Assembly (NCBI GenBank): GCA_964626065.1
Contig: CAZVDE010000005.1
Span: 1 to 61,951 of the forward strand
Origin: an uncultured Clostridiaceae bacterium
GTDB taxonomy: Bacteria > Bacillota > Limnochordia > Darwinibacteriales > Darwinibacteriaceae
Length of the DNA stretch: 61,951 nt
Reading direction: 5' to 3'
Positions within the stretch are counted from its first letter, which is position 1; every line of letters starts with the position of its first letter. Positions 2,133 through 47,901 of the stretch are shown here, in pieces. The notes below the pieces were generated by a model, which saw nothing but the letters and a program-made list of their open reading frames with translations, had not been told where the DNA came from and ran no database searches. The translations under genes were made by a program, and so were the position numbers.

Positions 2133-2144
2133 AGGAGTGAAAAT

Positions 2145-4003: not shown

Positions 4004-4760
4004 AATGCGTTTAGAAGATGTTACCTTTGCCTATGGAGCATTACCCGTTGTGCGCCAAATCAGCCTTGCTTTAAATTCCGGCGTCTTTTACGGGATCGTG
4101 GGGCCCAACGGGGCGGGTAAATCCACCATCCTCAAATTACTTGACCGTTTTGTAATACCCCAACAGGGCACCATTTTCTTGGATGAACGGGATTTAAACA
4201 GCTACAGTCTGCAGGAACTGGCTAGGCGTATTGCCTTGATACCCCAAAATTCGCCGGATTTTTCCTTCACAGTCGAAGAAGTGGTGCTTTTGGCCAGAAC
4301 ACCCCACAGCTTCCGCTGGCAGCCCCCTAGTGCTGAGGATCGGGAGATTGCAGCGGCCAGTATGGCCCTCACGGAAGTGCAGCATCTCGCGGGTCGGCAT
4401 GTTGGAGAGTTGAGTGGGGGTGAACGCCAACGGGTGAATTTAGCCCGCGTTTTTGCCCAGGGCACCGATATTTTGCTTTTGGATGAACCAACCACCTTTC
4501 TCGATTTAGAACATCAAATCCGCATTTCGAAGCTGCTTTGGGCCAAAGCGCGGGAAGGAAAGACCTGTGTGGGCGTTTTTCACGATCTTAATCTGGTCTC
4601 AAATTACTGCGATTATGTCTTCGTCTTGGCCGCCGGAGAGTTGATGGCCGAAGGGGAACCGGAAAAGGTTTTTACGCCCCAACTGATTAAGGAAATATAT
4701 AATGTGGGTGTGGTGGCCGTTAAACATCCCCACACGGGGCGGCCGATCATCGTTCCTTGA
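3996..4760 (+). CDS. ABC transporter ATP-binding protein (BtuD/FepC-like)
   Basis: Walker A GPNGAGKST, signature LSGGERQRV, Walker B ILLLDEP; overlaps the permease stop. Confidence 0.92.
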   Translation: MAKMRLEDVTFAYGALPVVRQISLALNSGVFYGIVGPNGAGKSTILKLLDRFVIPQQGTIFLDERDLNSYSLQELARRIALIPQNSPDFSFTVEEVVLLARTPHSFRWQPPSAEDREIAAASMALTEVQHLAGRHVGELSGGERQRVNLARVFAQGTDILLLDEPTTFLDLEHQIRISKLLWAKAREGKTCVGVFHDLNLVSNYCDYVFVLAAGELMAEGEPEKVFTPQLIKEIYNVGVVAVKHPHTGRPIIVP

Positions 4761-4823
4761 ATAAGCGTTGAAACCCAATCCCCCGGTTATACTATCGGTA
4801 CAGTGTCTATGAGGGGGATGCAG

Positions 4824-7346: not shown

Positions 7347-8708
7347 ATGCAGCAACCAGACTTACTTGTTCTTGGGGGCGGGCCGGCGGGCTATTCGGCC
7401 GCCATCCGGGCCAGCCAATTAGGGAAAAAGGTTATTGTGGCCGAAAGATGCGGCGTGGGCGGGGCCTGCCTTAATCGCGGCTGTATTCCGACCAAATCTC
7501 TCTTGGAAAGTGCTCGCTTTTACCGAGAACTGGATTTTGCCGCCAAACACGGAGTTTCTTTACAGATAGGCGAGCTTGATTATGGTGCGGTCCTCGCCCA
7601 AAAAAATGCCACGGTAACCCGCCTGGTGGAGGGACTCGAATTTTTGCTTAAACGCAGGGAAATTGAGATTGTCCGAGGCGAGGCGCGGTTTTTATCTTCC
7701 ACCGAAATTAGAGTGGGGGACCGGACTTTTCAACCGGATAAAGTGATTATAGCTACCGGCACAGTACCCATGCAGCTGCCCGGGTTGGAAACGGACGGTG
7801 AATTCGTTCTAAACAGCGATCAGCTGCTAGACTTAGCGGCGCTGCCCGAATCACTGTTGATTGTGGGCGGTGGCGTGATCGGCTGCGAGTTCGCCACAAT
7901 TTTCGCGTCCTTCGGTGTAGAAGTGACGATCGTGGAAATGCAGGAACAAATTTTGCCCCCGGAGGATCAGGAAATCAGCCGCACTTTAGCCCGGGAATTT
8001 AAGAAGCGCAAGATTAAGATTCTAACAGGTGCAGCGGTGCAAAAGGTGAATCGTCTGGGGCGGGGGCTGGCAGTGGAAGTGAGCCAAAAAGGGCGCACAC
8101 GCGCGATTGAGGCTGAGCGGGTGCTGGTATCAATCGGTAGGCGGCCCGTCGTACCCGAGGGTTTCAAGGGCGAACTTGATCGGCGCGGCTGCATCAAGGT
8201 TAATCCTTCCTTTCAGACATCCCTTCCCCACATTTATGCCGCGGGCGATATCATTGGCGGGATGCAGCTTGCCCATCTAGCCTTTGAGGAGGGGTGGGCC
8301 GCGGCCAATAATGCCTGGAGTGAGCCGGCCCGCAGCGAATGGTTTGTGCCCAGCTGTGTGTATACCCAACCTGAGATAGGCTCGGTCGGTTTAACGGAAG
8401 CAGAGGCCAGGAAAAAGTACGGCGATGTGGTGGTGGCCAAATATTCTCTTAAAGGCAACGGCAAAGCGGTTATTCTTGGAGATGACGGGGGATTTTGCAA
8501 GGTCATCGCTTCGCCCGACGGTGTAGTCCGGGGTGTGCATCTGATCGGGCCCCAGGCTACAGAATTGATTTCCAATGCTGTTTTGGCCCTGGAAAACGGG
8601 CTGACCTTAGCCCAATGGGCCGAAATCATCTACCCCCACCCAACCGTATCGGAGGCGATTAAAGAAACGGTATTAAGCGGATTAGGTACCGGATTACATT
8701 CAATATAG
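7347..8708 (+). CDS. lpdA: dihydrolipoyl dehydrogenase-family flavoprotein disulfide reductase
   Basis: GGGPAGYSAA FAD motif, redox-active CLNRGCIPTK, second dinucleotide fold VGGGVIGCEFA, C-terminal HPTVSEA interface motif. Confidence 0.88.
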   Translation: MQQPDLLVLGGGPAGYSAAIRASQLGKKVIVAERCGVGGACLNRGCIPTKSLLESARFYRELDFAAKHGVSLQIGELDYGAVLAQKNATVTRLVEGLEFLLKRREIEIVRGEARFLSSTEIRVGDRTFQPDKVIIATGTVPMQLPGLETDGEFVLNSDQLLDLAALPESLLIVGGGVIGCEFATIFASFGVEVTIVEMQEQILPPEDQEISRTLAREFKKRKIKILTGAAVQKVNRLGRGLAVEVSQKGRTRAIEAERVLVSIGRRPVVPEGFKGELDRRGCIKVNPSFQTSLPHIYAAGDIIGGMQLAHLAFEEGWAAANNAWSEPARSEWFVPSCVYTQPEIGSVGLTEAEARKKYGDVVVAKYSLKGNGKAVILGDDGGFCKVIASPDGVVRGVHLIGPQATELISNAVLALENGLTLAQWAEIIYPHPTVSEAIKETVLSGLGTGLHSI

Positions 8709-8729: not shown

Positions 8730-10400
8730 ATGCTTAGTGACATTGCAATTGCGCAGCAGGCCCGGCTGCGCCCAATTACCGAGTTGGCGGATGAATTATC
8801 CTTGGGTCGCGATGAGATTGAATTATACGGAAAGTACAAGGCCAAAGTTGATCTGAGCGTGTTGGAACGACTCAAGGATCGCCCCCAAGGGAAGCTGATT
8901 TATACTACGGCTATTACGGCAACCCCCGCGGGTGAAGGCAAAACGTGCACCACAATCGGACTGGCCCAGGCCCTGGGCAAGCTGGACAAGAAAGCAATCG
9001 CCTGCATCCGGGAACCGAGTTTAGGGCCCACTTTCGGAATCAAAGGTGGTGCCGCGGGCGGAGGCTATGCTCAGGTTGTACCCATGGAGGATATAAATCT
9101 TCATTTTACCGGCGATATTCATGCCGTGAGCACTGCCCATAATCTGCTGGCCGCCCTTTTGGACAATCATATCGCTCAAGGCAACGAATTAAATATCGAT
9201 CCCAAGCGGATCGTCTTTCGCCGCGTCATGGATATGAACGATCGGCAGCTGCGCAACATCGTAATTGGTTTGGGCGGCCTTGGCGACGGGTATGTTCGTG
9301 AGGCGGGTTTTGATATCTCCGTTGCTTCCGAGATAATGGCGATTTTGTGCCTGGCAAGTGATCTGCAGGATTTGAAAGAACGGGTGGGCAAAATCTTGGT
9401 TGCCTATACTTATGATCGTAAGCCCGTGTACGCCAGGGATCTAAAAGCCCAGGGCGCCTTGGCGGTGATTATGAAGGATGCCATCAAACCTAATTTAGTA
9501 CAAACACTGGAAGGGCAACCGGCCTTCGTTCACGGTGGTCCTTTTGCAAATATCGCCCACGGCAATAATAGTATTGTTGCGACCCAGCTTGCTTTGAAAC
9601 TGGCGGATTACGTTATTACGGAAGGCGGCTTTGCCGCGGATTTAGGCGCCGAAAAATTCTTTAATATTGTCCACGGTTATTCCGGACTAAAACCTGATGT
9701 GACCGTTATTGTGGCATCTGTGCGAGCTTTAAACATGCATGGCGGCGTGAGCCGAGAGCAAGTTGCCGAGACTAATCTCGAGGCGTTGGAGGCCGGTTTG
9801 GCCAACCTGGATAAACATGTGGAAAATATGAAAAAATTCGGTGTTCCCATCGTCGTGGCGATCAACCAGTTCCCCTCAGATGCGCCGGAGGAATTAGAAT
9901 TGGTGCAAAAACACTGTGAACGGCTTGGTGTGCGCTGGGCCCTTTCGCAGGTTGTGGCTAAGGGCGGCGAGGGCGGCCTGGATTTTGCCCGCACAATTCT
10001 AAATGTGCTGGAAACGGAGGCGGCAAATTTCAAACCTCTGTATGATTGGGAACAGCCCATAAAAGAGAAACTGGAAACGCTGGCCAAAGAAATATACGGG
10101 GCAGACGGCGTAGTTTATTCGCCTCAGGCGGAGCGGTCCATCAGGGCCTTATCCAGATTAGGTTATGACAAACTGCCCGTGTGCGTTGCCAAAACACAGC
10201 ATTCCATTTCAGACAATGCCGCGTTAAAAGGTGTGCCCAAGGGGTGGACCTTGACCATCACCGATGTGAGGCCCTCTTTGGGTGCGGGGTTTTTGGTGTG
10301 CCTAGCAGGCGACATTATGACAATGCCGGGACTGCCCGCCAGGCCCGCTGCGGAAAACGTGGATATTGATGCTGAAGGCACAATTACGGGTTTGTTCTAG
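8730..10400 (+). CDS. fhs: formate--tetrahydrofolate ligase
   Basis: 556 aa; TPAGEGKTCTTIGL P-loop, EPSLGPTFGIKGGAAGGGYAQV, FANIAHGNNS; full-length FTHFS. Confidence 0.96.
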   Translation: MLSDIAIAQQARLRPITELADELSLGRDEIELYGKYKAKVDLSVLERLKDRPQGKLIYTTAITATPAGEGKTCTTIGLAQALGKLDKKAIACIREPSLGPTFGIKGGAAGGGYAQVVPMEDINLHFTGDIHAVSTAHNLLAALLDNHIAQGNELNIDPKRIVFRRVMDMNDRQLRNIVIGLGGLGDGYVREAGFDISVASEIMAILCLASDLQDLKERVGKILVAYTYDRKPVYARDLKAQGALAVIMKDAIKPNLVQTLEGQPAFVHGGPFANIAHGNNSIVATQLALKLADYVITEGGFAADLGAEKFFNIVHGYSGLKPDVTVIVASVRALNMHGGVSREQVAETNLEALEAGLANLDKHVENMKKFGVPIVVAINQFPSDAPEELELVQKHCERLGVRWALSQVVAKGGEGGLDFARTILNVLETEAANFKPLYDWEQPIKEKLETLAKEIYGADGVVYSPQAERSIRALSRLGYDKLPVCVAKTQHSISDNAALKGVPKGWTLTITDVRPSLGAGFLVCLAGDIMTMPGLPARPAAENVDIDAEGTITGLF

Positions 10401-24641: not shown

Positions 24642-25751
24642 TTAACGCAATCTATTGCGGTTTAAAACCGATGTAAGGCGTTTCCAGGCGGCTGCAAAGC
24701 CGCCTGCGTTGATCACGTAGAAAATGGTAGCTCCGGTGCCGACGAAGAATAAAAGGCCCGTTATACTGCGTTTTGCCGCTTTACCCTGTCCCAACTCCGC
24801 GGCTTCGGCGCTCGGCCCATAAAAATACAAATCCACTACCTCCGCAAACAAACTGATGCCCCGTTGCGCGGCCGGTCGGCTGTTCGTATGGGCCCCAACC
24901 TCCAAGAGCAGGCTTAAGGGTGATAGGTCCTGGTTATAATTGCCCCTGCCAAAGAAGATGCCCTTCACGAGGCCGGGGTAAAGGTCATCAGCTATTTTTT
25001 TCAAGGACTGGGCGTATTGGCGGTTGATTCCCAGGTTTTGATTCTGCCTGCCCACAACAAACTGGACGCGGGTCATCCACTCATCATTTAGTTGGACAGC
25101 ATACGCACCCTGCGGTGCCGCATCACGATGTACATCGAAAATGGCATCGGGTTTTTTTGCTAAGAGCTCTAAGACCGTTTCCCGTGAACGGCGGTATGCA
25201 CCCCGATCGTGCGGTAAATGGAGGCGCTCAGAATAATCGGCATGGATGCCCATCTTTTCCATGGCTGTGACAAAGGCCCGGCCCACATGATGAATGCCGC
25301 CCTTGCCGTTGATACTGTCCGTACCATCCGTGGGAACGTAGCTTTCCGCATTGTGGGTGTGATAGACGGCAATCGTTCCCCTTCGCTTCTGGTCGGCCTT
25401 GGCGGCAGTCAGACCAAGAGCTTGGCGTAATTCGGCTAGGGGGACAACCTCTAGTTCGACCTTTTCCACGAATTTGGTTTTGGCGATCCGCCGGTCCTCG
25501 TCTACTTCAATTACTTGGTACAGCCCATTTTGTTCAGTTAGGTATTGATCCTCCACATAGACTTGCCTGCCCGTTTCGGTCAGAATCTCTCCTGCGGGGT
25601 CCAGGATGGAGTAGTACTGGCCCGCGGGCAGAAATCCGCCCCAGTTTTCTTCCGGGCGGTCAGTCCCACCGGCGGTGGTAGGGAGCAACAGTAGTGAACA
25701 AACCAAAAGACCTGCACCCAGCACTATTTTAGCGATTTTATTCAGAATCAT
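24642..25751 (-). CDS. spoIIP: stage II sporulation protein P
   Basis: TM anchor, then IAVYHTHNAESY..DG...GGIHHVG and DVHRDA, LLEVG (SpoIIP amidase family). Confidence 0.88.
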   Translation of the reverse strand: MILNKIAKIVLGAGLLVCSLLLLPTTAGGTDRPEENWGGFLPAGQYYSILDPAGEILTETGRQVYVEDQYLTEQNGLYQVIEVDEDRRIAKTKFVEKVELEVVPLAELRQALGLTAAKADQKRRGTIAVYHTHNAESYVPTDGTDSINGKGGIHHVGRAFVTAMEKMGIHADYSERLHLPHDRGAYRRSRETVLELLAKKPDAIFDVHRDAAPQGAYAVQLNDEWMTRVQFVVGRQNQNLGINRQYAQSLKKIADDLYPGLVKGIFFGRGNYNQDLSPLSLLLEVGAHTNSRPAAQRGISLFAEVVDLYFYGPSAEAAELGQGKAAKRSITGLLFFVGTGATIFYVINAGGFAAAWKRLTSVLNRNRLR

Positions 25752-26376
25752 CGCCTCCTGTCCGGTTGATTGCACTGTGGTGCAGATACTGTCGTACTTC
25801 ACCGATTATTTCGGCAATCAAGACTGCTAAAAATGGACTTATGACTGCGCTGGAAAACAAACCTCCGCTGCCGAAAATAATGGGCTGATGAATTTTCTGC
25901 GCCCATAACTGCAGCAACGCACCAAGGTCAGCAAGATAGACTCCCAGGATGCCTCCGATGAAAGCACCCCGGCGCGACCGGCCCCACAGATAGGAAAGCA
26001 GTCCTGCGAAGATACCTGCGCTGAAAACGGGATCTAGAAGCCCCGGGTCGGGGGGCAGGAGCTTGTCTGTAAGCAGAACGAAAACAGCGGTCGCCAGACT
26101 GACCAAGGCAGCTCTTACCCTTTCCTGCGGGGAGGTGGTCGACAGTAGATAGGCCGCAATACCCACCAGTGCCAGCGAACCCAGATTTAGCGCCAGGTGG
26201 GGCCCTAAGGGCACAGTAGGGAGAAAATGGCCCGCAACCATTATTCCTATGATAATCAGTGCAGACGCGTCCGTGAGTCTCATGCGATCCAGAATTCTCT
26301 GGCCGAGTCCGAGATAAATCAATACGCTGATAATTCCTAAAATGAAAATGCTGGTGAAAAGCTGAATGTGATTCAC
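25738..26376 (-). CDS. polytopic membrane protein (DUF1614-like)
   Basis: 212 aa, about six hydrophobic helices; family call from memory only; sits immediately upstream of spoIIP. Confidence 0.5.
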   Translation of the reverse strand: MNHIQLFTSIFILGIISVLIYLGLGQRILDRMRLTDASALIIIGIMVAGHFLPTVPLGPHLALNLGSLALVGIAAYLLSTTSPQERVRAALVSLATAVFVLLTDKLLPPDPGLLDPVFSAGIFAGLLSYLWGRSRRGAFIGGILGVYLADLGALLQLWAQKIHQPIIFGSGGLFSSAVISPFLAVLIAEIIGEVRQYLHHSAINRTGGDDSE

Positions 26377-33531: not shown

Positions 33532-34149
33532 CTAACCTATTTCCGCGGGCTGCGGTGGGAAGGGGGGCCAAAACGCCCCGGTTTCCGCCATTTCGAACCA
33601 TTCCGCACAGCCCAATGGCGACACCTGCTCGCAGAGGGGCGGCTCGTTTGAGAATCTTCCCATTACTTCCAGCTGCACCAAGGCGACGGCTTTGACAACG
33701 ATGTAGACACCCACATCGCATTCAATTACCTCTCCGCTGTCAACTACACGGCAGGCTATGCAGCGAACCAAGGGCAGTATAACGACCTGCATGCCGGGCA
33801 CGGCACCTGCAAGGCGAAGGCCCCGCCGCCTGAATTGGCCGGCCTGCTGGATGAACTGGGAATTTCCGTTGGAGTCGTATTCGATGTTCAAGGTGAAGGT
33901 AACGTCAACATCAATTTCGTTTGTCCCGACCACAAAACCTTCCGCCACAAGATCAGTCACAGCGCAGTCCACAACATTGACTGCAGGCGGGAAACATGGT
34001 GGAACAGGAACTCTAAGGGTGATGCAATCCACCATGGAACACTCGTTATAGACTTTGTTGACGTAGATGATCTCCGGCCGGAAGGGTTGGGGCGGATCGG
34101 GGTGGCAGCATTGGGGATCCGGGCGACGACGTTGTTCAGGGTTATTCAT
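33532..34149 (-). CDS. hypothetical Cys/Pro-rich protein
   Basis: 205 aa, AGGAGG SD; Pro-rich ends (PDPQCCHPDPPQPFRP..., ...FWPPFPPQP) and 11 Cys; no signal peptide; no family recognised. Confidence 0.55.
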   Translation of the reverse strand: MNNPEQRRRPDPQCCHPDPPQPFRPEIIYVNKVYNECSMVDCITLRVPVPPCFPPAVNVVDCAVTDLVAEGFVVGTNEIDVDVTFTLNIEYDSNGNSQFIQQAGQFRRRGLRLAGAVPGMQVVILPLVRCIACRVVDSGEVIECDVGVYIVVKAVALVQLEVMGRFSNEPPLCEQVSPLGCAEWFEMAETGAFWPPFPPQPAEIG

Positions 34150-34256: not shown

Positions 34257-35606
34257 GTGTTCATTGTGTTGATTCATATTCGCCATCCGGAGTATTGGGC
34301 CATAGAAATAAAAGGCGAATCCTTGTTAGTCCACCCCGCGCGGGGCCAAAGCAGGTTGCTGTCAGAAGGCATCGTGGATGTGGCTGCGGCCGTGAGCGCC
34401 GGCCTGATCCACATCGTGGCGTTTGGTGAAAACAAAGACTATGCTTGGCACTTTTTCGGCCGGGAAAGTTTTAATCGTGACCGTGTCGAGCTCGGACAAG
34501 TATACGGCGGTGGGGCCAGGCTTGTTTCGGATGGGGCGGGGATGATCCATTTGCTGTATTTGGCACAGCAGTCAACGGGGCGCGGCACTATATTGAAGCA
34601 CCGCGTTTTTTCTCAGTCGTGGGCTGAGCCGCTATCAGTATCGCCCAATGTTTCAACTCAGGGTTCTAATTTCAGCGCTGCATGGCACAATGACGGCTAT
34701 CTGCACATCGTTTATTGCTGCCAGCGGGAACAGCATCTTTATTACCGTGTTTTCAACCCTGAGCAGGGTATCTGGAGCGGCGCCATTCCTTTTTCCCGGG
34801 GGCGCTGCAGCTATCCCGTGCTGATTCCCGCGACCGTACTCTATTTATTCTGGCTGGAAGAAGCCGCAAAGATTGGTTTGCAGGTGCGCCAAAAAGAAAC
34901 GGTCTGGTCTGAAACGATGTTAATTTCGGAGCAAAAGGCGCACGTGAGCGGTGTGGGTTTTGCCTTAAAAGAAGAGGCATGGCGTCTATTTTGGCGGGAA
35001 GGCGCTGCATTGTATCGAACCGCCTTTGGCGACTGGGCCGGTCGGGAGCAAGAGGAAGCGGATCAGTATAAATTTGTCTGGGCAGTTGAAGGGGGAGTCA
35101 TGATTCCCGCCTACAGGGCTGAAATCGCCGCGGACGACGTGGTCGCCGATATGGTTGCCGACACAGCCGACACGGTCGCTGACAGGGTCGCCGACACGGT
35201 CGCTGACACAGCCGCCGCGGAGACGGCACGACGTCAAAAGATTGTGCGTAAGCAGGATGAAGAGCGGGAAAAAAAAGAAGCGGAGGCACAGGCCGCCTTT
35301 ATGCAGCAGTCTTTCCGGGTGCTGCAGGAATGGGAAAGGCTGAGGGAAGAAATTCGCCTCTGGCGCGGTGAAACGCTTGTAGCCGAACCGGTTGATCTGG
35401 GACCCATACTTAATAGATGTGAGCGTTTGGAGAGGCGTTATGTCTCTTTAGGGCAGGTGCAAAAACAGCATATGGAACATTCTGCAGCCGAACTGGAAAA
35501 AATCAGGCTTGATCTCCAACGGATTCAGCGGCGGCTCCACGATTTTGAGCAGGCGCAAAAGAAACGCAAAACCGGTTTTTGGCATAGATTATTGGAAAAG
35601 GATTGA
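34257..35606 (+). CDS. hypothetical protein: repeated beta-rich N-terminal blades, acidic VAD repeat, charged coiled-coil tail
   Basis: 449 aa; recurring blade-like units (GLIHIVAFG, GMIHLLYLA, GYLHIVYCC, VLYLFWLE each followed by an aromatic-rich strand), then VADMVADTADTVADRVADTVADT, then an E/K/R/Q-rich helix; the exact start is uncertain (GTG 34257 or 34266). Confidence 0.6.
   Translation: MFIVLIHIRHPEYWAIEIKGESLLVHPARGQSRLLSEGIVDVAAAVSAGLIHIVAFGENKDYAWHFFGRESFNRDRVELGQVYGGGARLVSDGAGMIHLLYLAQQSTGRGTILKHRVFSQSWAEPLSVSPNVSTQGSNFSAAWHNDGYLHIVYCCQREQHLYYRVFNPEQGIWSGAIPFSRGRCSYPVLIPATVLYLFWLEEAAKIGLQVRQKETVWSETMLISEQKAHVSGVGFALKEEAWRLFWREGAALYRTAFGDWAGREQEEADQYKFVWAVEGGVMIPAYRAEIAADDVVADMVADTADTVADRVADTVADTAAAETARRQKIVRKQDEEREKKEAEAQAAFMQQSFRVLQEWERLREEIRLWRGETLVAEPVDLGPILNRCERLERRYVSLGQVQKQHMEHSAAELEKIRLDLQRIQRRLHDFEQAQKKRKTGFWHRLLEKD
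35141..35215 (+). repeat. in-frame imperfect tandem repeat encoding (V/T)AD(T/R/M) units
   Basis: GCCGACACGGTCGCTGACA occurs exactly at 35166-35184 and again at 35190-35208 (24-nt period), flanked by degenerate 12-nt units. Confidence 0.85.
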
Positions 35607-35619
35607 CGGGGGGCTTTGT

Positions 35620-35919
35620 ATGGAGGTTATAATTTGTGGGCCCGGGCACTTCAGACTACCATCGTGCGGGGGCTGAAGAAAAAATGTGCCCCTGGCGGAG
35701 GCAGTGATTTATCTTAGGAGGGCAGTGCGCCGCCGTGTGGGGACGGGGGTTGTGGTGCGGTTTGTGGCTGTTGACAGCACTGAGGCTCGGCAAAGCCCAT
35801 GGGGGGCCGAAACCTCACTGCCGCTTGTGGTTATTAACGGAATAGTGTTTTCAAAAGGTGTCTTTTCTTTTGCAGAGATTATCCAAGCGTTACAGACGAT
35901 GCAGTCCAAAAAGCAATAG
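35620..35919 (+). CDS. candidate thioredoxin-fold selenoprotein (CxxU; TGA 35674-35676 read as Sec), YuzD/glutaredoxin-like
   Basis: ATG 35620 is in frame with the 77-aa ORF (GTG 35686) and separated from it only by one TGA; the read-through product MEVIICGPGHFRLPSCGGU... restores strand 1 and a C-x-x-U motif at the CxxC position; a GGGGGG SD-like run lies 6 nt upstream. Confidence 0.5.
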
Positions 35920-35922
35920 GAC

Positions 35923-35962
35923 AATGGCAGAAGTTACCGTTCGGTTCTTCTGCCATTTTTTT
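35923..35962 (+). terminator. intrinsic terminator
   Basis: AATGGCAGAAG (35923-35933) pairs with CTTCTGCCATT (35947-35957), followed by a T-run. Confidence 0.85.
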
Positions 35963-36002: not shown

Positions 36003-36635
36003 GTGAAACGCAGCTTTTTACTTAGCTTTGTCCTCGTACTGTTTTTAGTGTCCTCTGTGGGCGCAAGTTCCTGGAACTGGTGGGCCCCGAGCGCTCCTAG
36101 TGGCGCCGGTGATTCGGCTTGGGGTCAAATTCTGTGGCCCGAGCTCAGCCAACCCTCTTGGCCCCCCTCAACTCAACCGCCCGCTCCATCCCCGGGTACT
36201 CCGCCCGTAAACCCGGAGGTGCCAACTGAACCCACTCCTCCGCCAAATTCATCGCTGACAGCCGACGAACAGCGGGTATTTACTCAGGTTAATGAGGAGC
36301 GGGTCAAGAACGGCCTTAACGCCTTATCTCTTGACACAGGTTTAATCACTTTGGCCAAGATGAAAAGCCGGGATATGGCCGTAAACAACTATTTCGATCA
36401 CGTTTCCCCCACATACGGTACCGTGTATACAATGCTAAACAGTGCCGGAATCAGCTACTCTCGCGCCGGCGAAAATATTGCGGTAACGGGAAGTATTGCC
36501 CGCGTTCATCCTCTTTTTATGGGCAGCCCCGGCCATAGAGTGAACATTCTCCATTCGGGGTATACTCACATAGGCGTCGGTGTGGTTAAGCGCGGAGTTA
36601 CTTATTATGTCACTCAAATTTTCATCAAAAAGTAG
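36003..36635 (+). CDS. secreted CAP (SCP/PR-1, YkwD-like) domain protein with a Pro-rich linker
   Basis: Signal peptide, PS/PT-rich linker, then LTADEQRVFTQVNEERVKNGL, YFDHVSP, GENIA, PGHRVNIL, HIGVGV. Confidence 0.85.
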   Translation: MKRSFLLSFVLVLFLVSSVGASSWNWWAPSAPSGAGDSAWGQILWPELSQPSWPPSTQPPAPSPGTPPVNPEVPTEPTPPPNSSLTADEQRVFTQVNEERVKNGLNALSLDTGLITLAKMKSRDMAVNNYFDHVSPTYGTVYTMLNSAGISYSRAGENIAVTGSIARVHPLFMGSPGHRVNILHSGYTHIGVGVVKRGVTYYVTQIFIKK

Positions 36636-39028: not shown

Positions 39029-39727
39029 ATGATGAGAAAGAGACTAATGTTTGTTTTAGTGTTGGCGGTAATCCTTGGGGCGTGTCCGGGTGTTAGAGCA
39101 GAGACCCTCTGGGATAGGATGGGAAAGGGCTTTCCCAATCGGGAGCAGGTTTATGAGTATGTTTATGAATTGCGCAGTCCTCAATTGCAGATAGACGTGG
39201 CTTTGCCTCAGATTATCGGTGCCGCGGATGCGGCCTGGCAGGGTCGGTTTAATCAGAAATTGCTTGATTTTGCGGAGCAATTCACAGCTGAACTGCGCGA
39301 AATTGCCCATCAATCGGAGCAGGCGGGATTTGAGTTTCACGCCCCCTTTGAGGGCATTATCCGGTTCGATCTTAAATTGAACAGCGGCGGCCTGTTGAGC
39401 CTGGTGATTCAAACCTATACATACACGGGCGGCGCCCATGGAATGACAGTACGCGATTACATTAATCTTGATCTGACCACCGGAGAACACCTTCGTTTTC
39501 GGGATTTTTTTGCAACGGAGGCGGAGTTGGAAAGGGCGGCAGAAATAATTAATGCTAAGGTGGTCGCAGAACCGCAGCGGTTTTTCATCCGGGAATTCAC
39601 GGCAGATGAGTTCCTGGCGGACCAGGATTTTTATCTAGAATCCGGGCGGGCTGTTATTTGTTTTGGCCTTTATGAGATTGGCCCGTACGTGGCCGGCATT
39701 CAGGAGTTTGCGGTATCGGCCCCATAG
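39029..39727 (+). CDS. secreted DUF4163/DUF3298 domain protein (RsiV/PdaC C-terminal-like)
   Basis: Signal peptide; YTYTGGAHGMTVRDYINLDLTTGEHL and FYLESGRAVICFGLYEIGPY are DUF3298 hallmarks. Confidence 0.8.
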   Translation: MMRKRLMFVLVLAVILGACPGVRAETLWDRMGKGFPNREQVYEYVYELRSPQLQIDVALPQIIGAADAAWQGRFNQKLLDFAEQFTAELREIAHQSEQAGFEFHAPFEGIIRFDLKLNSGGLLSLVIQTYTYTGGAHGMTVRDYINLDLTTGEHLRFRDFFATEAELERAAEIINAKVVAEPQRFFIREFTADEFLADQDFYLESGRAVICFGLYEIGPYVAGIQEFAVSAP

Positions 39728-41880
39728 GGTACTAGTTTCAGCACATCACCGTGTTTGATTGGCGCAGTGAACCCCACTTCTTTTCCGTTGAGAAGGATTG
39801 TGCCGCCTTGGCGCAAGAACTCCGCATCCGGTTCGTAGTTTCGAAAAATATCCGTTACAATGTAAGAATTCAAGGCTCCGGCCGGGCTAGGCACATATTT
39901 GATTCGGTCCAGGGGCCTTATTTTATAATCAAGAGTGACTGTTTTTCCGTTCACGGTAGGATTGGTGAGTTTGGGAGCCAATTCGAATTCTTCCCCGTTG
40001 ATCAGCACAGCAATGTTTTCTGATGCTTCTTCTTCCGGCGGGCCCAGGACTTCCCTGAGGCTACAGCCCGGGCGCTCGTATTCCACTTTTGCCCCGTTTC
40101 GCAGGTGGGCGCGCAGTGATTGTTCAACTCCGTCAACCAGAATTCTAAGCCGTTCCAGCGCGGTTTTAGGCTCGTTATTAAGATAAAAGCGGATTTCTTG
40201 TTCAATGGGGATGCGCAGATATTCAAACAGGCCCGCAAAATCAGTTATGGGCCCCAGAGCGATTTTGTCCCGATCGCGCACAATATAGTCCGGGGGACGG
40301 ACTTCGCCGTTAACCAGAATCTGCGGTTTGACCTCAATCGCTGATCCGTTCAGAGTGAACCGGAAACTGTGGGCAGAAATATCCGTTAATTCCTCGAGCG
40401 TAACGCCGGGCGGCTCCCCCGCTTTACCTCGAAGGACCGTGATCTGATCCCCATCGCGGAGCGGGGTATCTAAACCCGCGGCCTTCCCGTTCTTTAAGAT
40501 CGCTGCCGGCCTGCCCAAAGTTCCCGGCAGGGGAATGCAGCGACCATTTAGTTCTACCGTATAGGCCCGGCCCGGCCTACCGGCGAATTCTCCGGGAACT
40601 ATCCCGGCATATAATAAAGAGTCGCCCACAGTTGAAGATGCCATTTTTAAAACCTGCAGCTGCTGTTCGTTGACGCTCACTCGTATGAGCTGCATACCCC
40701 GGCCGTCCAGGTGCGTTACGCCTATAGCCATGGGTGTAATCGTCTGAGGCCCATGGAAGTCGGGCACGCCCACGATATTTTCCAAACTGGAGCGGTTGCG
40801 CACTCGCACCAAAGTTGAAGGCAGGCTTAGGCTTTGGGCCAGTGTTTCTGCGAGCCCGGGCGTGAGGCTGCCGCCCCCAATTAGGATCACGCCCTTAGGG
40901 GCGCCGCCATTTAACTCCAAAATCTTGCGGGCTATCTTGTCCGCTAACACCTGCACATGGGGTTGAATTGTTTCCAGCAGTTGGCGGTAGGATATTGTTA
41001 AAGTGTTTCCAAACACATCTTCGCACTCATATGTCCGGTCCGGCCGGAGTTCGGTTTTTACCCGCTCAGCCACTTTTGTATCCAATAAAAATTGTTCCGC
41101 GATGCCCGCGGTAATAGCATCGCCCGCGTGAGAGACCATACCGTAATCCTTAATCGTCCCTTCCGCAGAAATAGCCAGATCGGAGGTGCCCGCGCCCACG
41201 TCTACCAGGGCAATATTCAGCATGCGCATCGTAGCGGGTACCACTAGGTGCATCGCGGCTATAGGTTCTAAAGTTAGCGAATCCATGCTTAAGCCGGCAC
41301 TCTCAAGGGCGGTGCTGAGCGAATCAATGACAATACGAGGTAAGAAGGTGGCAATGACCTCCACTTTTCCTTCTCTACCTCGATGATCGATCAAAGAACC
41401 GATGGGTTCCCCGTCGAGATAACGTTGGGTGACACTGTAGCCGACACAAAGGTAGCTGTCCATTGCGCCTTTTCCACCGTTAGCGGACAGTTTCTTAACA
41501 GCGTTCCACACCGCTTCCAACTCCAGTGATTTGATGCCGGCGGCGGAAAAACGCTGGTTTAAAGCAGACGTGACGGTACTCACACCAATCTCGGTAATCA
41601 GAGAACGCCCCGCGGCGGCGACGGCCGCTTTTTCCAAAGTAACGCCCTCAGCCTGCTCCAATTCGTCTTTTATTTTGGCAATCACTCGAGCAACGGCATC
41701 GATGCGGTGGATTTGGCCATCCGCCATTGCCCCGGGCAGCTGCCGGTGGGTTGAAGCGTGCATGATTGCAAAACCCTCATCTGTCGGGGACATCAATAGA
41801 CCGGCAATTTCTCGGGTTCCGATATCAAGAGCAAAAATCCGGGCCGTACTCATTGGCATCACCTCAATATTCATTTCCAC
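39700..41880 (-). CDS. actin-like (FtsA/PilM/EutJ-type ASKHA) ATPase fused to six C-terminal beta-grasp-like repeats
   Basis: IFALDIGTREIAG (phosphate 1), LVDVGAGTSDLAI (phosphate 2), ILIGGGSLTPGL (adenosine); residues about 396-726 contain six repeats of h-x-h-x-h-N-G ... (R/H)-D/x-G-D-x-I/L. Confidence 0.75.
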   Translation of the reverse strand: MEMNIEVMPMSTARIFALDIGTREIAGLLMSPTDEGFAIMHASTHRQLPGAMADGQIHRIDAVARVIAKIKDELEQAEGVTLEKAAVAAAGRSLITEIGVSTVTSALNQRFSAAGIKSLELEAVWNAVKKLSANGGKGAMDSYLCVGYSVTQRYLDGEPIGSLIDHRGREGKVEVIATFLPRIVIDSLSTALESAGLSMDSLTLEPIAAMHLVVPATMRMLNIALVDVGAGTSDLAISAEGTIKDYGMVSHAGDAITAGIAEQFLLDTKVAERVKTELRPDRTYECEDVFGNTLTISYRQLLETIQPHVQVLADKIARKILELNGGAPKGVILIGGGSLTPGLAETLAQSLSLPSTLVRVRNRSSLENIVGVPDFHGPQTITPMAIGVTHLDGRGMQLIRVSVNEQQLQVLKMASSTVGDSLLYAGIVPGEFAGRPGRAYTVELNGRCIPLPGTLGRPAAILKNGKAAGLDTPLRDGDQITVLRGKAGEPPGVTLEELTDISAHSFRFTLNGSAIEVKPQILVNGEVRPPDYIVRDRDKIALGPITDFAGLFEYLRIPIEQEIRFYLNNEPKTALERLRILVDGVEQSLRAHLRNGAKVEYERPGCSLREVLGPPEEEASENIAVLINGEEFELAPKLTNPTVNGKTVTLDYKIRPLDRIKYVPSPAGALNSYIVTDIFRNYEPDAEFLRQGGTILLNGKEVGFTAPIKHGDVLKLVPYGADTANS

Positions 41881-45979: not shown

Positions 45980-46390
45980 GTGACTACTGCTATTGAAAAA
46001 GCTCTGCGCCTGAAAAATGCGGCGGTCGTGGGACTAAGCAGGGATCCTGCCAAGGCGGCTCATAGTGTGCCGCGCTACCTTCAGCAGCACGGCTATCGGA
46101 TTATACCGGTCAATCCGTTTGCCCGGGAATTACTGGGGGAGCGTGCCTATGCAAAGGTGAGCGAAATAGGGGAACGAGTTGATTTGGTGATCGTCTTTAG
46201 GCCTTCCTCGGAGGTGCCCCCCGTCGTGGAGGATGCGCTAACGCGACAGGATGTGCAGGCAATCTGGCTTCAGGAGGGAATCACAAACGAAGAGGCACAG
46301 AACCTTACTGAAGGCCGCGGCCTGATCTACGTTGAGGATAAATGCGCCTTTAAGGAACATCGCAGGCTAAAAAGGGAGCATAAACTGTGA
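45980..46390 (+). CDS. CoA-binding domain protein (YccU/YneT-like)
   Basis: NAAVVGLSRDPAKAAHSVPRYLQQHGYRIIPVNP ... DLVIVFRP. Confidence 0.8.
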   Translation: MTTAIEKALRLKNAAVVGLSRDPAKAAHSVPRYLQQHGYRIIPVNPFARELLGERAYAKVSEIGERVDLVIVFRPSSEVPPVVEDALTRQDVQAIWLQEGITNEEAQNLTEGRGLIYVEDKCAFKEHRRLKREHKL

Positions 46391-47901
46391 TGAGAAAGAC
46401 AGTGGGCCCGGCCTGCATTTTCCTTCTTTGTCTCGCCTTTAGTTTTGCGGCCGCGGCGGTGGCAGGGGAGATTGCCGCGGGATGCAGCGACCCTTTACCG
46501 CTTCCCGCCGATAAAGTAATGCGTATATCCGAGGCCTGGGTGGAATTTGAACATCATGGTTCGCTGCCCATCGCAGAGGAGACGCGGTCCTACCATCACT
46601 GGGAGCAACTGGTCTTCGAGGTACCTTTGGCGGCGGTTTTAGTTGGTTTTGAAGAGGTGGTCGCTACTGTTCAAAACGGTGAGATTATTAGATTTGATGT
46701 GTATGATCCCCTCTACATTCGCACTATGCGTGTGGCGGTTAGCAGGGAAGATTTCGCCGGGATTGAACACACAGAATTGCGTTTTGCCCCCACATCTAAA
46801 ATCTATGTGGAAGAAACGGGAACGGGGCGCGGTTTTGTGGCGGAGGCGGGTGAGGAAATCACCGCCTTTGCCCAAGGCGGAAAGCTGTTCTTTAAAGATG
46901 GGGCGAAAACCCTTTGGGAGTTTGATCGCCGGCTTTATCTCTGGGCTGACCAGGAGGGCATGATTCAAATTAAATCCTTTCAGCGGGGGACTACCGCCAA
47001 ATTTTATCCCCGTTATCGGGGCCGCTTTGAGCTCACTGCAGCGGGGGCGGACACTTTTTTGGCTATAAATGAGGTTGATTTGGAAGAATACCTATATCAG
47101 GTGGTTCCAAGCGAGATGGTGATCAGTTGGCCTTTGGAGGCGCTAAAAGCCCAGGCTGTTGCATCTAGGACCTATGCGGTGGCCCAGGTCATTTATTCAC
47201 GCCGGGGGCATCTTGGTTTTCATGTCAGTGACAGCACCAGTTCTCAAGTTTACAATAATCAGCCTGAGGCGGATAGCGCGACCCGGGCTATTTTAGAAAC
47301 GTCGGGTGAAATTTTGGCTAAGCCTGACGGCACAATCGGCTCCACTTATTTTTATTCCACCTCGCCCCGGGGCGTTATGAACAGCAAACAGGCTTGGAGT
47401 GATCGGACCGGGCTTGATCTAGAAGGCAATTCGCCCTGGTATCGCTGGCAGTGTTACTTCAGCGCAGAAGAATTGGCCGCCCTGCTGCATCCGTGGCTGC
47501 AACTGCCCCCGGGGACCTTGCAGCAAGTGGAGGTGGGAGAACGTGATGAACTGGGCCGAGTAGTAAACTTGACTGTGCAGAGCACCGCTGGCACGGCTTC
47601 GATTTTAGGGGAGTTGAATATCCGCAGTGCGCTGCGGCCCAGCCGTTTGCAGAGAGTCAGCGATAGCCTTAATCAATTAGCGCTGCTGCCCAGCGCCATG
47701 TTCATGATTGAACCCCGGCGAGATGCGCAGGGCAATCTTGTGGGCGCGGCATTTTTCGGGGGCGGAAGCGGCCATGGCCTGGGCATGAGCCAGTGGGGGG
47801 CGAAGGGTATGGCCGAGGCAGGATATGATTATCTCAGCATTCTCAGCACTTATTATTCCGACATGCATTTAATTACCCATGCGGAGCAATTGAGGTATTA
47901 A
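46387..47901 (+). CDS. SpoIID/LytB domain-containing protein
   Basis: LEEYLYQVVPSEM, EALKAQAVASRTYA, and C-terminal GGGSGHGLGMSQWGAKGMA. Confidence 0.88.
   Translation: MMRKTVGPACIFLLCLAFSFAAAAVAGEIAAGCSDPLPLPADKVMRISEAWVEFEHHGSLPIAEETRSYHHWEQLVFEVPLAAVLVGFEEVVATVQNGEIIRFDVYDPLYIRTMRVAVSREDFAGIEHTELRFAPTSKIYVEETGTGRGFVAEAGEEITAFAQGGKLFFKDGAKTLWEFDRRLYLWADQEGMIQIKSFQRGTTAKFYPRYRGRFELTAAGADTFLAINEVDLEEYLYQVVPSEMVISWPLEALKAQAVASRTYAVAQVIYSRRGHLGFHVSDSTSSQVYNNQPEADSATRAILETSGEILAKPDGTIGSTYFYSTSPRGVMNSKQAWSDRTGLDLEGNSPWYRWQCYFSAEELAALLHPWLQLPPGTLQQVEVGERDELGRVVNLTVQSTAGTASILGELNIRSALRPSRLQRVSDSLNQLALLPSAMFMIEPRRDAQGNLVGAAFFGGGSGHGLGMSQWGAKGMAEAGYDYLSILSTYYSDMHLITHAEQLRY

What the first reader, a model, noticed from the sequence alone, without database searches (positions are those of the whole stretch)
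35620..35919. In-frame UGA joins a CxxU-bearing 5' segment to the 77-aa ORF: candidate thioredoxin-fold selenoprotein
The ORF track starts this gene at GTG 35686. An ATG at 35620 is in the same frame and is interrupted only by TGA 35674-35676. This ATG has a GGGGGG SD-like run at 35608-35613 and lies 13 nt after the stop of the upstream gene. Read through, the 99-aa product is MEVIICGPGHFRLPSCGG-U-RKNVPLAEAVIYLRRAVRRRVGTGVVVRFVAV...SLPLVVINGIVFSKGVFSFAEIIQALQ. That gives strand 1 (EVIICG), a C16-x-x-U19 motif at the start of helix 1, a PLVV strand with the Pro where thioredoxin folds carry the cis-Pro, a Gly turn and a C-terminal helix. This is the glutaredoxin / YuzD (DUF1462)-type thioredoxin fold, with the redox dyad exactly where CxxC normally sits. 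The 77-aa version would lack strand 1 and the whole active site. CxxU/UxxC thioredoxin-fold proteins are a well-documented class of bacterial selenoproteins that gene callers routinely miss. A small GC hairpin at 35687-35703 (UGCC / CCUGGCGGA / GGCA) puts a G-rich apical loop about 18-22 nt after the UGA. That is the distance expected for a bacterial SECIS, but the stem is short, so this part is weak.
Basis: partly seen in the sequence, partly recalled or inferred. Interest (0 to 1): 0.8.

Follow-up and report, generated by a model that had tools for sequence, protein, structure and literature searches.

The report
Unannotated YuzD-like selenoprotein gene (CGGU)
A small gene that annotators cut short at an in-frame UGA is very probably a 99-residue selenocysteine-containing redox protein distantly related to the Bacillus YuzD thioredoxin-fold family, and it appears to be a selenoprotein family that has not been described.

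Summary
ATG 35620 has a G-rich SD at 35608-13. An in-frame TGA lies at 35674-76, the annotated GTG at 35686, the stop at 35917-19, and a small hairpin at 35687-35703.

The selenoprotein reading is strongly supported by comparison. I recovered 15 distinct homologous loci, 36-79% identical in protein, all metagenomic, with some named Limnochordia/Bacillota.
- All 15 keep the in-frame TGA in an invariant C-G-G-TGA motif. The genes' real stop codons vary (TAG 7, TAA 6, TGA 2).
- All keep a conserved N-terminal strand with its own SD and free synonymous variation.
- All have the hairpin GCCUCU-GGG-AGAGGC exactly 11 nt after the UGA. It meets the four published bacterial SECIS criteria, and its synonymous sites are frozen.

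Profile-profile comparison links the read-through protein to YuzD/DUF1462 (Prob 96%, E 3e-9) across both sides of the UGA. The truncated ORF alone scores much lower.

No Cys-form or full-length homologue turned up in 1.8 or 5.8 billion proteins. Databases hold only 64-79-aa stubs. NCBIfam and a 2026 family catalogue do not list it.

Not verified: selA/B/C/D in these genomes, and selenium incorporation.

The parts
34257..35606 (+). Upstream 449-aa gene of unknown function. It is the probable operon partner, with its stop 13 nt before the candidate's ATG.
   Evidence: ORF list. No Pfam or NCBIfam hit. A ~410-445-aa gene occupies the same position in every related locus long enough to show it.
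35608..35613 (+). Shine-Dalgarno-like GGGGGG run, 6 nt before ATG 35620.
   Evidence: Sequence. All 15 homologues have GGAGG, GGGGG or GGAGGG 5-9 nt before the equivalent ATG/GTG/TTG.
35620..35673 (+). True start codon and N-terminal 18 codons, MEVIICGPGHFRLPSCGG. This is strand beta-1 plus the loop carrying Cys16.
   Evidence: Conserved as protein in 15 loci, with synonymous variation in the invariant G7, C16, G17 and G18 codons. One homologue has a 6-nt (2-codon) in-frame deletion. Adding this segment raises the hhalign score to YuzD from 30 to 42-54.
35674..35676 (+). In-frame UGA, the proposed selenocysteine codon (residue 19 of the C16-G-G-U19 motif).
   Evidence: TGA in 15 of 15 distinct homologues. 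The terminal stops of the same genes are TAG 7, TAA 6, TGA 2. Long ORFs of the window end in TAA 24, TAG 17, TGA 12.
35677..35686 (+). A-rich spacer (AGAAAAAAUG) coding R-K-N and the start of V23, between the UGA and the window's own hairpin. In the family consensus the spacer is 11 nt (35677-35687).
   Evidence: Ungapped alignments A5 and A9. The spacer length is the same in all 15 loci.
35687..35703 (+). SECIS-like hairpin. The family consensus is GCCUCU-GGG-AGAGGC, equivalent to 35688-35702. The window's copy is register-shifted by two synonymous changes: U14-A30, G15-C29, C16-G28, C17-G27, bulged A26, C18-G25, C19-G24, loop UGGC.
   Evidence: RNAalifold gives a 6-bp consensus stem at -8.4 kcal/mol. 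Per-sequence MFE is -7.7 to -9.8 kcal/mol. 98.9% of stem cells are paired, with no covariation because the stem is invariant. Synonymous sites are frozen. bSECIS criteria are from PMC13188914.
35677..35919 (+). C-terminal 80 codons plus stop TAG (35917-35919): alpha1-beta2-alpha2-beta3-beta4-alpha3 of a thioredoxin-type fold. The annotated 77-aa ORF (35686-35919) is this piece.
   Evidence: Translation. AF2 model of this part has pLDDT 72, with that order of elements. It aligns to YuzD.
35923..35962 (+). Intrinsic terminator: an 11-bp GC-rich stem with an inner 3-bp stem, followed by U7. It ends the transcription unit just after the gene.
   Evidence: RNAfold -20.3 kcal/mol, z -5.55, 0 of 200 shuffles as good.

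Best explanation
Window 35620-35919 is a single gene for a 99-residue selenoprotein.

**Proposed mechanism**
- Translation starts at ATG 35620, with its SD at 35608-13. The gene is probably co-transcribed with the upstream 449-aa gene.
- At UGA 35674 the ribosome does not terminate. SelB-GTP-Sec-tRNA(Sec) is tethered by the small G-loop hairpin that begins about 11 nt downstream (35687-35703), inside the coding sequence.
- Selenocysteine is inserted as residue 19.

**Product**
- The product is a minimal thioredoxin-fold protein, remotely related to Bacillus YuzD / S. aureus SA0789 (DUF1462).
- Its CxxC redox centre is replaced by C16-G-G-U19, at the end of the beta1-alpha1 loop and the start of helix 1.
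- It would cycle between a selenol/thiol form and a selenenylsulfide form, acting as a thiol-disulfide-type oxidoreductase.

**Shown:** the conserved UGA, the coding constraint on both sides of it, the conserved SD, the conserved hairpin with frozen synonymous sites, and the remote homology to YuzD across the UGA.

**Inferred:** Sec rather than another residue at the UGA, SelB binding, redox activity, and the substrate. The substrate is unknown. The invariant neighbours are a ~430-aa protein, a Cys-rich ~200-aa protein, a YkwD-like CAP protein and a DUF445 protein, in spore-forming Limnochordia-type Bacillota.
For: 1. **UGA conserved.** TGA is kept in frame in 15 of 15 distinct homologues (36-79% identity to the window protein), within the invariant motif CGG-TGA-[RS][KR]x-[MV]PL. 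Their true stop codons vary: TAG 7, TAA 6, TGA 2. The metagenome scan pattern lay downstream of the UGA, so it was blind to the codon there. All 9 loci it found still carried TGA.
2. **Upstream segment is coding.**
   - Invariant residues use 2-4 synonymous codons.
   - The only indel is a 6-nt in-frame one.
   - An SD lies 5-9 nt before the upstream start in all 15.
3. **Hairpin.**
   - It starts 11 nt after the UGA in all 15 loci, with a 6-bp stem and a 3-nt GGG loop.
   - The distance from UGA to the loop is 17 nt, and MFE is -7.7 to -9.8 kcal/mol.
   - All four bSECIS model criteria quoted in PMC13188914 are met.
4. **Frozen synonymous sites.** The codons inside the hairpin are P24 CCT 14/15, L25 CTG 15/15 and E27 GAG 15/15, at 0-0.35 bit. 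Twenty-five other conserved columns average 1.60 bit, with a minimum of 0.75. The A28 third base, just outside the stem, is free.
5. **Homology to YuzD.** hhalign of the read-through family against real PF07315 members gives Prob 96.2%, E 2.8e-9, over 89 columns (query 1-93), with C16 and U19 opposite the invariant CxSC.
   - With X at the Sec position it still gives 92.7%.
   - The truncated ORFs alone give 67%.
   - DUF1462 is the top Pfam hit in 5 of 9 members.
6. **Fold.** The YuzD model matches PDB 1xg8 (TM 0.79), then thioredoxins. The 80-aa C-terminal model has exactly the thioredoxin-fold elements minus beta1.
7. **No recoding of UGA.** TGA is an ordinary stop in this genome. The upstream gene ends in TGA, as do 12 of 53 long ORFs, so no general reassignment of the code explains it.
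Against: - No selA, selB, selD or tRNA-Sec was seen. Only 282 kb around these loci could be examined (Pfam), so this is absence of data rather than evidence of absence.
- No orthologue with Cys in place of Sec was found in two very large searches. [quoted passage not shown]
- The hairpin stem shows no compensatory substitutions, and its sequence overlaps the conserved peptide PLGEA.
- In the window alone the hairpin is the weakest of the family and is not better than shuffles.
- Pfam DUF1462 scores stay below the gathering cut-off, and the window's own protein gives no DUF1462 hit.
- The residue-level register at the active site changes when U is coded as X.
- The full-length protein could not be modelled because the tool refuses non-exact sequences. 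The truncated model found no significant fold match.
Confidence: 0.82

Rival explanations
1. There are two separate translation products. A conserved 18-residue upstream ORF (MEVIICG...SCGG) ends at UGA. The 77-aa protein starts independently, or by termination-reinitiation, at the GTG/ATG 9 nt later, as gene callers annotate it. The hairpin would be a regulatory element at that start.
For: - Codon 23 is always ATG or GTG in the 15 loci.
- Every database entry for the family is the 64-79-aa form.
- The UGA-to-RUG spacing is fixed.
Against: - The stop would have no reason to be UGA in 15 of 15 loci when the genes' real stops are mostly TAG or TAA.
- There is no SD before the internal RUG, whereas a good SD precedes the upstream start in all 15.
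- The G of the RUG is the first base pair of the hairpin. That explains why the third base is fixed, and it would hinder initiation there.
- The 9 nt between the UGA and the RUG evolve as codons R/S-K/R-N/S/D.
- The N-terminal peptide aligns collinearly with beta1 and the active-site loop of single-chain YuzD, and raises the homology score.
- The 77-aa form lacks beta1 and any redox residue.
Confidence: 0.06
2. The UGA is read through without the Sec machinery. The hairpin stimulates decoding by a near-cognate or suppressor tRNA (for example Trp or Cys), giving a full-length protein that contains no selenium.
For: - The Sec machinery could not be shown for these genomes.
- No Cys-form orthologue exists, which is unusual for selenoproteins.
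- The same comparative signals (conserved UGA, hairpin, coding on both sides) would also be expected under this model.
Against: - The hairpin's position, size and G-G loop fit the SelB-dependent bSECIS model specifically.
- A redox CxxU next to a thioredoxin-fold helix is the classic context for Sec (PMC13188914).
- From general knowledge, no hairpin-dependent non-Sec UGA recoding of this type is established in bacteria. If Cys were acceptable at this position, TGY variants would be expected among 15 diverged loci, and none was seen.
Confidence: 0.05
3. The gene is a pseudogene or a sequencing artefact. Under this reading the TGA is a nonsense mutation or a homopolymer error in a CxxC gene.
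For: - The window has G and A homopolymers around the TGA.
- The Ion Torrent assembly of the same organism (L002) differs there by inserted bases, and yields an artefactual 78-aa protein, P0003.
Against: - The same TGA is found in 15 distinct sequences from independent assemblies and platforms. Several have no homopolymer at the site, for example tgt ggc ggc tga in L001.
- Both sides remain under purifying selection.
- L002 shows inflated homopolymers throughout the locus, so it is the erroneous copy.
Confidence: 0.01
4. The hairpin is a terminator or attenuator rather than a SECIS. Read on the minus strand, it is followed by a T-run.
For: The consensus scan lists 35703-35687 plus CATTTTTTCT as a terminator-like site on the minus strand.
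Against: - No minus-strand gene ends nearby. The nearest is the DUF445 gene, which ends at 36683, with two plus-strand genes in between.
- The number of terminator-like sites in the region equals the shuffle expectation: 3 found against 2.6 expected.
- The T-run is simply the reverse complement of the Arg-Lys-Asn codons.
- A genuine strong plus-strand terminator lies after the gene's stop.
Confidence: 0.01

Closest known systems
YuzD / DUF1462 family (Pfam PF07315; B. subtilis YuzD, S. aureus SA0789, PDB 1xg8)
   Same: - Similar size (about 100 aa) and the same order of secondary-structure elements: beta-alpha-beta-alpha-beta-beta-alpha.
- A conserved Gly ends beta1.
- The redox dyad sits in the beta1-alpha1 loop.
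- A conserved Pro precedes beta3.
- hhalign gives Prob 96% over 89 columns.
- JGI already labels some truncated members 'disulfide oxidoreductase YuzD'.
   Different: - Only 12-15% identity, and below the Pfam cut-off (best 19.3 bits against 25). The window's own protein gives no DUF1462 hit.
- CxSC is replaced by CGGU, with 4 extra residues in the loop before it.
- The invariant YuzD motifs YGA, LPSSKET..EW and GEGNP are absent.
- Found in Limnochordia-type anaerobes rather than Bacillaceae or Staphylococcus.
- YuzD itself has no established function in the papers searched.
Known CxxU / UxxC thioredoxin-fold bacterial selenoproteins (SelW-like/Rdx PF10262, Sec-Trx, Sec-Grx, AhpF-N-terminal-like, Thioredoxin_3 'Sec.1/Sec.2', HUIPC-motif Trx-like NF047660)
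   Same: - A small thioredoxin-fold protein with Sec in the position of one Cys of the CxxC dyad.
- UGA followed by an in-CDS hairpin.
- Truncated by gene callers (table in PMC13188914).
   Different: - No significant match to any of their Pfam or NCBIfam models. The best are Thioredoxin_3 at E 0.086 in 1 of 9 members and NF047660 at E 0.14 in 1 of 9.
- The motif is CGGU, not CxU, UxC or UxxC.
- No Cys-form orthologues were detected.
Eukaryotic selenoprotein M (SELENOM)
   Same: It has the same tetrapeptide redox motif, C-G-G-U, in a thioredoxin-like fold (PMC10668967, found).
   Different: - SELENOM is a eukaryotic ER protein with a 3'-UTR SECIS.
- No sequence similarity was detected: no Sep15/SelM Pfam hit at E <= 10.
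- The shared motif is best read as convergence.
E. coli fdhF-type / consensus bacterial SECIS
   Same: - A hairpin inside the coding sequence immediately 3' of the UGA.
- An 11-nt spacer before the minimal stem-loop. The figure of 11 nt for fdhF is from my own knowledge.
- A G-G at the start of a small apical loop.
- All four published consensus criteria are met.
   Different: - It is very short: a 6-bp stem and a 3-nt loop.
- No conserved bulged U, and no supported lower stem.
- No Rfam family matches.

Membership tests
Bacterial selenoprotein gene (Sec-UGA with bSECIS) | In-frame UGA conserved among orthologues, with protein-level conservation on both sides. | tested here: met
   15 of 15 distinct loci. 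Terminal stops of the same genes vary.
Bacterial selenoprotein gene (Sec-UGA with bSECIS) | A stem-loop 3' of the UGA that fits the bSECIS model: loop of 3-9 nt, upper stem of 4-16 bp, G in the first two loop positions, 16-37 nt from UGA to loop, MFE <= -7.5 kcal/mol (PMC13188914). | tested here: met
   Loop GGG (UGGC in the window), stem of 6 bp, 17 nt to the loop, MFE -7.7 to -9.8 kcal/mol in 15 of 15 loci. Synonymous sites are frozen. There is no covariation.
Bacterial selenoprotein gene (Sec-UGA with bSECIS) | Homologues with Cys aligned to the UGA position. | tested here: inconclusive
   No Cys-form orthologue among 1.84e9 representatives or 5.8e9 proteins. The distant YuzD CxSC aligns to C16/U19 when U is coded as C, but the register shifts when U is coded as X.
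Bacterial selenoprotein gene (Sec-UGA with bSECIS) | The genome encodes selA, selB, selD and tRNA-Sec. | not testable with these tools
   None found in the window or in the other loci fetched, 29 sequences and 282 kb in all (Pfam).
Bacterial selenoprotein gene (Sec-UGA with bSECIS) | Selenium is incorporated into the product. | not testable with these tools
   Needs 75Se labelling or mass spectrometry.
YuzD / DUF1462 (PF07315) | Score at or above the Pfam gathering cut-off (25 bits). | tested here: not met
   Best member scores 19.3 bits, E 0.0015. Five of 9 members hit below threshold, and the window's protein has no DUF1462 hit.
YuzD / DUF1462 (PF07315) | Profile-level homology over the whole domain. 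| tested here: met
   hhalign Prob 96.2%, E 2.8e-9, 89 columns. With X at the Sec position it is 92.7%.
YuzD / DUF1462 (PF07315) | The family's invariant motifs: Y-G-A after beta1, C-x-S-C, and G-E-G-N-P after beta4 (from alignment A8). | tested here: not met
   Only the Gly of YGA, the dyad position (as CGGU), the Pro before beta3 and one Gly (G80) are retained.
Thioredoxin fold | beta-alpha-beta-alpha-beta-beta-alpha topology, with the dyad at the N-terminus of helix 1 and a Pro before beta3. | tested here: inconclusive
The 80-aa C-terminal model (pLDDT 72) shows alpha1-beta2-alpha2-beta3-beta4-alpha3. Foldseek gave no significant hit, though the weak list is rich in GST, AhpF, Dsb and Trx proteins. 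The homologous YuzD model is a clear thioredoxin fold: 1xg8 at TM 0.79, then thioredoxins.
Described prokaryotic selenoprotein families (NCBIfam release 20; Table 1 of PMC13188914) | A match to an existing selenoprotein model or a listed family. | tested here: not met
   No NCBIfam hit for the window's protein. The best among 9 members is E 0.06-0.14. No YuzD/DUF1462 entry appears in the 2026 table. No paper combines 'selenoprotein' with DUF1462 or Limnochord*.

The most novel reading that the evidence does not exclude
This is a selenoprotein family with no cysteine-form orthologues at all, confined to one uncultured lineage of anaerobic-digester Bacillota (Limnochordia-type). Such a family would be invisible to the Cys/Sec-pair methods that now define the bacterial selenoproteome.

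A more radical version is that these genomes lack selABCD, and the conserved hairpin drives a UGA-specific recoding that is independent of Sec.
Probability: 0.3. Interest if true: 0.75.

Novelty: new member of a known kind. Interest (0 to 1): 0.6.

Why it matters
- **A likely new family.** It would add a family to the bacterial selenoproteome that current pipelines miss. NCBI records give 64-79-aa 'hypothetical protein' stubs, and JGI labels the stub YuzD.
- **A blind spot in prediction tools.** The authors of deep-Sep state that their tool, and Cys/TGA-pair methods generally, depend on Cys-containing homologues. They also say all known selenoproteins seem to have them (PMC12013277). A family found only in the Sec form shows where those tools can fail.
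- **A handle on YuzD/DUF1462.** This is a widespread Firmicute family with a solved structure (1xg8) but no assigned function. A Sec version argues that the dyad is catalytically redox-active.
- **A compact test element.** The 15-nt hairpin, 11 nt from the UGA, is invariant across the family. It is a convenient minimal SECIS for testing SelB recognition in Gram-positive anaerobes.
- **A practical correction.** The gene model in this window should be 35620-35919, with Sec at codon 19.

Tried and rejected
1. **Single-sequence searches.** Pfam and NCBIfam scans of the read-through protein gave nothing usable.
2. **First genome-contig scan.** A single-protein query found no relative.
3. **Second genome-contig scan, wasted by my own choice.** I coded Sec as Cys, so the only pattern used was CGGC..., which cannot match TGA. 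As a result no named genome was obtained, and no sel genes could be sought there.
4. The search of protein representatives and structure prediction reject sequences that are not exact.
   - The representative search therefore ran on a profile that lost the N-terminal columns (79 positions).
   - Only the truncated protein could be modelled. Its Foldseek search was not significant.
5. **Rfam.** No SECIS family matched; only a cobalamin riboswitch and a tRNA were found.
6. **Lower SECIS stem.** A possible stem (positions 4-6 with 39-41) has no statistical support.
7. **Other selenoprotein genes nearby.**
   - The read-through ORF scan of the window showed only chance cases or adjacent genes.
   - The all-against-all TGA-as-sense comparison of 13 loci was swamped by off-frame conservation. 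Its output was cut, but in the part I could read only this gene stood out.
8. **Sec machinery.** tblastn with E. coli SelA, SelB and SelD sequences written from memory, against all 282 kb held, gave no hit. No tRNA-Sec was found.
9. **Literature.** Nothing links YuzD/DUF1462 or Limnochordia with selenoproteins. No BSepDB supplements are held.
10. **The listing of cluster members** does not accept U-containing sequences.
11. **Minus-strand terminator reading of the hairpin.** Considered and rejected.
Full report
**1. The observation**

Every coordinate in the finding is correct.
- The upstream 449-aa gene stops at TGA 35604-06.
- A G6 run lies at 35608-13.
- ATG 35620 opens a frame that is closed only by TGA 35674-76.
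- The mechanical ORF list begins the gene at GTG 35686 (77 aa), and the frame ends at TAG 35917-19.
- Read through, the product is 99 aa, with C16-G-G-U19.
- The small hairpin at 35687-35703 is real. Taken alone it is unimpressive: folding of 35670-35740 or 35674-35715 gives z-scores of -0.95 and -1.2.

The window by itself does not prove anything. The case rests on comparison with related loci.

**2. Relatives**

A first word-indexed search found only three proteins.
- One, P0003, comes from GCA_001509945.1. This is the Ion Torrent assembly of a Spirulina-fed biogas reactor (PMC4683858).
- Its DNA (L002) is the same locus with inflated homopolymers, which shift the TGA out of frame. P0003 is therefore an artefact, not a counter-example.
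- The other hit, P0002 (79% identical; L001), showed the key result. Its DNA reads GTG-EILICGPRRSILPSCGG-TGA-RKNVPLAEAV, with tgt ggc ggc tga where the window has tgc ggg ggc tga.

An exhaustive HMMER search of 1.84 billion representatives used a profile of the C-terminal part. It returned eight proteins, all 70-78 aa. I fetched their contigs and translated upstream in frame. Every one has the same in-frame TGA in [S/L/A]CGG-TGA-[RS][KR][NSD]-[MV]PL[GAE]EA, preceded by (M/V)E(V/I)(I/L)(V/I)xG.

A metagenome scan used a peptide pattern that lies downstream of the UGA, so it was blind to the codon there. It added nine loci, five of them new sequences, and all carry TGA.

A profile search of 5.8 billion proteins with 14 full-length sequences found 24 entries, all 64-79 aa. 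None was about 98 aa and none had Cys at the site.
- Source names include 'Limnochordia bacterium', 'Bacillota bacterium' and 'Firmicutes bacterium'.
- JGI calls some of the stubs 'disulfide oxidoreductase YuzD'.
- One member, P0015, occurs on 190 contigs, including a 2.33-Mb contig.
- Synteny is constant: a ~195-aa Cys-rich gene (-), a ~430-aa gene (+), this gene (+), a YkwD-like CAP gene (+) and a DUF445 gene (-).

**3. Coding signals**

I aligned the codons of 15 distinct genes.
- Invariant residues upstream of the UGA use several synonymous codons: G7 four, C16 two, G17 four, G18 three.
- The one indel is 6 nt.
- All 15 have GGAGG, GGGGG or GGAGGG 5-9 nt before the upstream ATG/GTG/TTG. 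Nothing SD-like precedes the internal RUG.
- The internal stop is TGA in 15 of 15. The terminal stop of the same genes is TAG 7, TAA 6, TGA 2.
- TGA is the rarest stop among the window's long ORFs, 12 of 53.

A stop that merely terminates a leader peptide would drift among the three codons just as the terminal stop has. Its fixation as UGA is what a recoding event requires. TGA is otherwise a normal stop here, so a reassigned genetic code is excluded.

**4. The RNA element**

The sequence GCCUCU-GGG-AGAGGC starts exactly 11 nt after the UGA in all 15 loci.
- The consensus fold is a 6-bp stem with a 3-nt loop, at -8.4 kcal/mol.
- Individual hairpins are -7.7 to -9.8 kcal/mol.

The bSECIS model quoted in a 2026 review (PMC13188914) asks for four things:
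- an apical loop of 3-9 nt and an upper stem of 4-16 bp;
- a G in the first two loop positions, usually followed by G or U;
- 16-37 nt between the UGA and the loop;
- MFE <= -7.5 kcal/mol.

All four are met, and the distance to the loop is 17 nt.

There is no covariation, because the stem does not vary. The stem also overlaps the conserved peptide PLGEA, so conservation alone would be ambiguous. The synonymous sites resolve this.
- P24 is CCT in 14 of 15, L25 is CTG in 15 of 15 and E27 is GAG in 15 of 15, giving 0-0.35 bit.
- Twenty-five other conserved columns average 1.60 bit, and none falls below 0.75.
- The third base of A28, the first nucleotide outside the stem, takes all four values.

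The window's copy carries two synonymous changes, CCU to CCC and GCA to GCG relative to L001. These break two consensus pairs but create C18-G25 and C19-G24. The result is a register-shifted 6-bp stem with a bulged A and a UGGC loop. A putative lower stem has no support. Rfam has no matching family.

**5. What the protein is**

Pfam and NCBIfam give nothing significant for the window's protein. Across nine members, however, DUF1462 is the most frequent hit.
- It appears in 5 of 9 members, best E 0.0015 and 19.3 bits against a cut-off of 25.
- The alignments run nearly end to end, and three of them begin exactly at C16 opposite profile position 9.

I fetched genuine PF07315 proteins using a YuzD sequence written from memory. 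The hits are real database entries annotated PF07315/YuzD, 77% identical to the seed. I aligned 20 of them.

| Query against YuzD alignment | Prob | E-value | Score |
|---|---|---|---|
| Read-through family, U coded as C (89 columns, query 1-93) | 96.2% | 2.8e-9 | 53.6 |
| Read-through family, U coded as X | 92.7% | 4.3e-7 | 42.1 |
| Truncated ORFs alone | 67% | 5e-5 | 30.4 |

- With U coded as C, beta1 aligns to beta1, C16 and U19 align to the invariant CxSC, and P68 aligns to the invariant Pro before beta3.
- With U coded as X, the local register at the dyad shifts, so residue-level equivalence is not secure.
- The 18 upstream residues therefore contribute homology in a collinear way. This is what a single chain predicts and what two separate products do not.

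An AF2 model of YuzD (pLDDT 89) matches PDB 1xg8 (S. aureus SA0789, TM 0.79), followed by dozens of thioredoxins.

The full-length candidate could not be modelled because the tool refuses it.
- The 80-aa C-terminal part (pLDDT 72) folds as alpha1-beta2-alpha2-beta3-beta4-alpha3, which is a thioredoxin fold minus its central first strand.
- Its Foldseek search was not significant, although the weak hits are mostly thioredoxin-fold proteins.

**6. Mechanism proposed**

The gene is probably co-transcribed with the 449-aa gene, given the 13-nt gap. A strong terminator follows at 35923-35962 (-20.3 kcal/mol, z -5.55). Initiation is at 35620, with SelB-dependent Sec insertion at 35674 directed by the hairpin. 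The product is a YuzD-like thiol/selenol oxidoreductase with a C16-x-x-U19 centre.

Sec occupies the C-terminal position of the dyad, as in SelW/Rdx-type proteins and in eukaryotic SELENOM. SELENOM happens to share the exact CGGU motif (PMC10668967) but shows no detectable sequence similarity. The substrate is unknown. The invariant neighbours, especially the Cys-rich ~200-aa protein, are candidates by position only.

**7. What is missing**

The Sec machinery could not be checked.
- There is no tRNA-Sec in the window or in seven long loci.
- No SelA, SelB or SelD homologue was found in the 282 kb held (Pfam).
- I lost access to named genomes through a poor pattern choice.
- No paper in the library links Limnochordia with Sec.

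The lack of any Cys-form orthologue is unusual. The deep-Sep authors state that all known selenoproteins now have Cys homologues (PMC12013277). Here the only Cys homologues are the remote YuzD proteins.

**8. Novelty**

The 2026 catalogue of known and predicted prokaryotic selenoprotein families lists no YuzD/DUF1462-like or bacterial CGGU family. NCBIfam release 20 has no matching model. Public records annotate only truncated stubs.

I therefore file this as a new family of a well-known kind: thioredoxin-fold CxxU selenoproteins with an in-CDS SECIS. Its unusual trait is that it has been seen only in the Sec form.

- Confidence in the selenoprotein reading: about 0.8.
- Interest: 0.6.

Noticed in passing
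window 1859-2054 (+): Cobalamin riboswitch (Rfam RF00174, 94 bits) upstream of a run of plus-strand ORFs (2109-5888).
   Followed up: no
window 35923-35962 (+): Strong intrinsic terminator immediately after the candidate gene: -20.3 kcal/mol, z -5.55, followed by U7. The consensus scan missed it because its loop is longer than 8 nt.
   Followed up: yes
L002 6001-6237 (GCA_001509945.1, JMBV01000007.1): This is the same locus in an Ion Torrent assembly, with inflated G and A homopolymers. It produces a frameshifted, artefactual 78-aa protein (P0003) that is deposited in NCBI.
   Followed up: yes
window 39700-41880 (-): A 726-aa FtsA/PilM-like actin-fold protein carrying C-terminal ThiS/MoaD/ubiquitin-like matches. 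It keeps the same relative position in the related loci long enough to show it. This is an unusual domain combination.
   Followed up: no
window 33532-34149 (-) and 34257-35606 (+): Two conserved genes with no Pfam or NCBIfam match flank the candidate on the upstream side. One encodes a Cys-rich 205-aa protein. The other encodes a 449-aa protein with a short V-A-D-T/R-V-A-D repeat (about 35130-35200) and a charged C-terminal tail. They are possible functional partners.
   Followed up: partly
window 35703-35687 (-): The SECIS-like hairpin is scored as a minus-strand terminator-like site, because the A-rich Arg-Lys-Asn spacer reads as a T-run on the other strand. I judged this a coincidence.
   Followed up: yes
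window 24642-25802 (-), 46387-47901 (+), 36003-36635 (+): SpoIIP, SpoIID and a YkwD-like CAP-domain gene indicate an endospore-forming Bacillota. GC content is 49-54% across the window.
   Followed up: partly
window 8730-10400 (+) and 7347-8708 (+): A formate-tetrahydrofolate ligase gene lies next to a pyridine nucleotide-disulphide oxidoreductase (dihydrolipoamide-dehydrogenase-like) gene. No formate dehydrogenase or other known selenoprotein gene was seen in the window.
   Followed up: no
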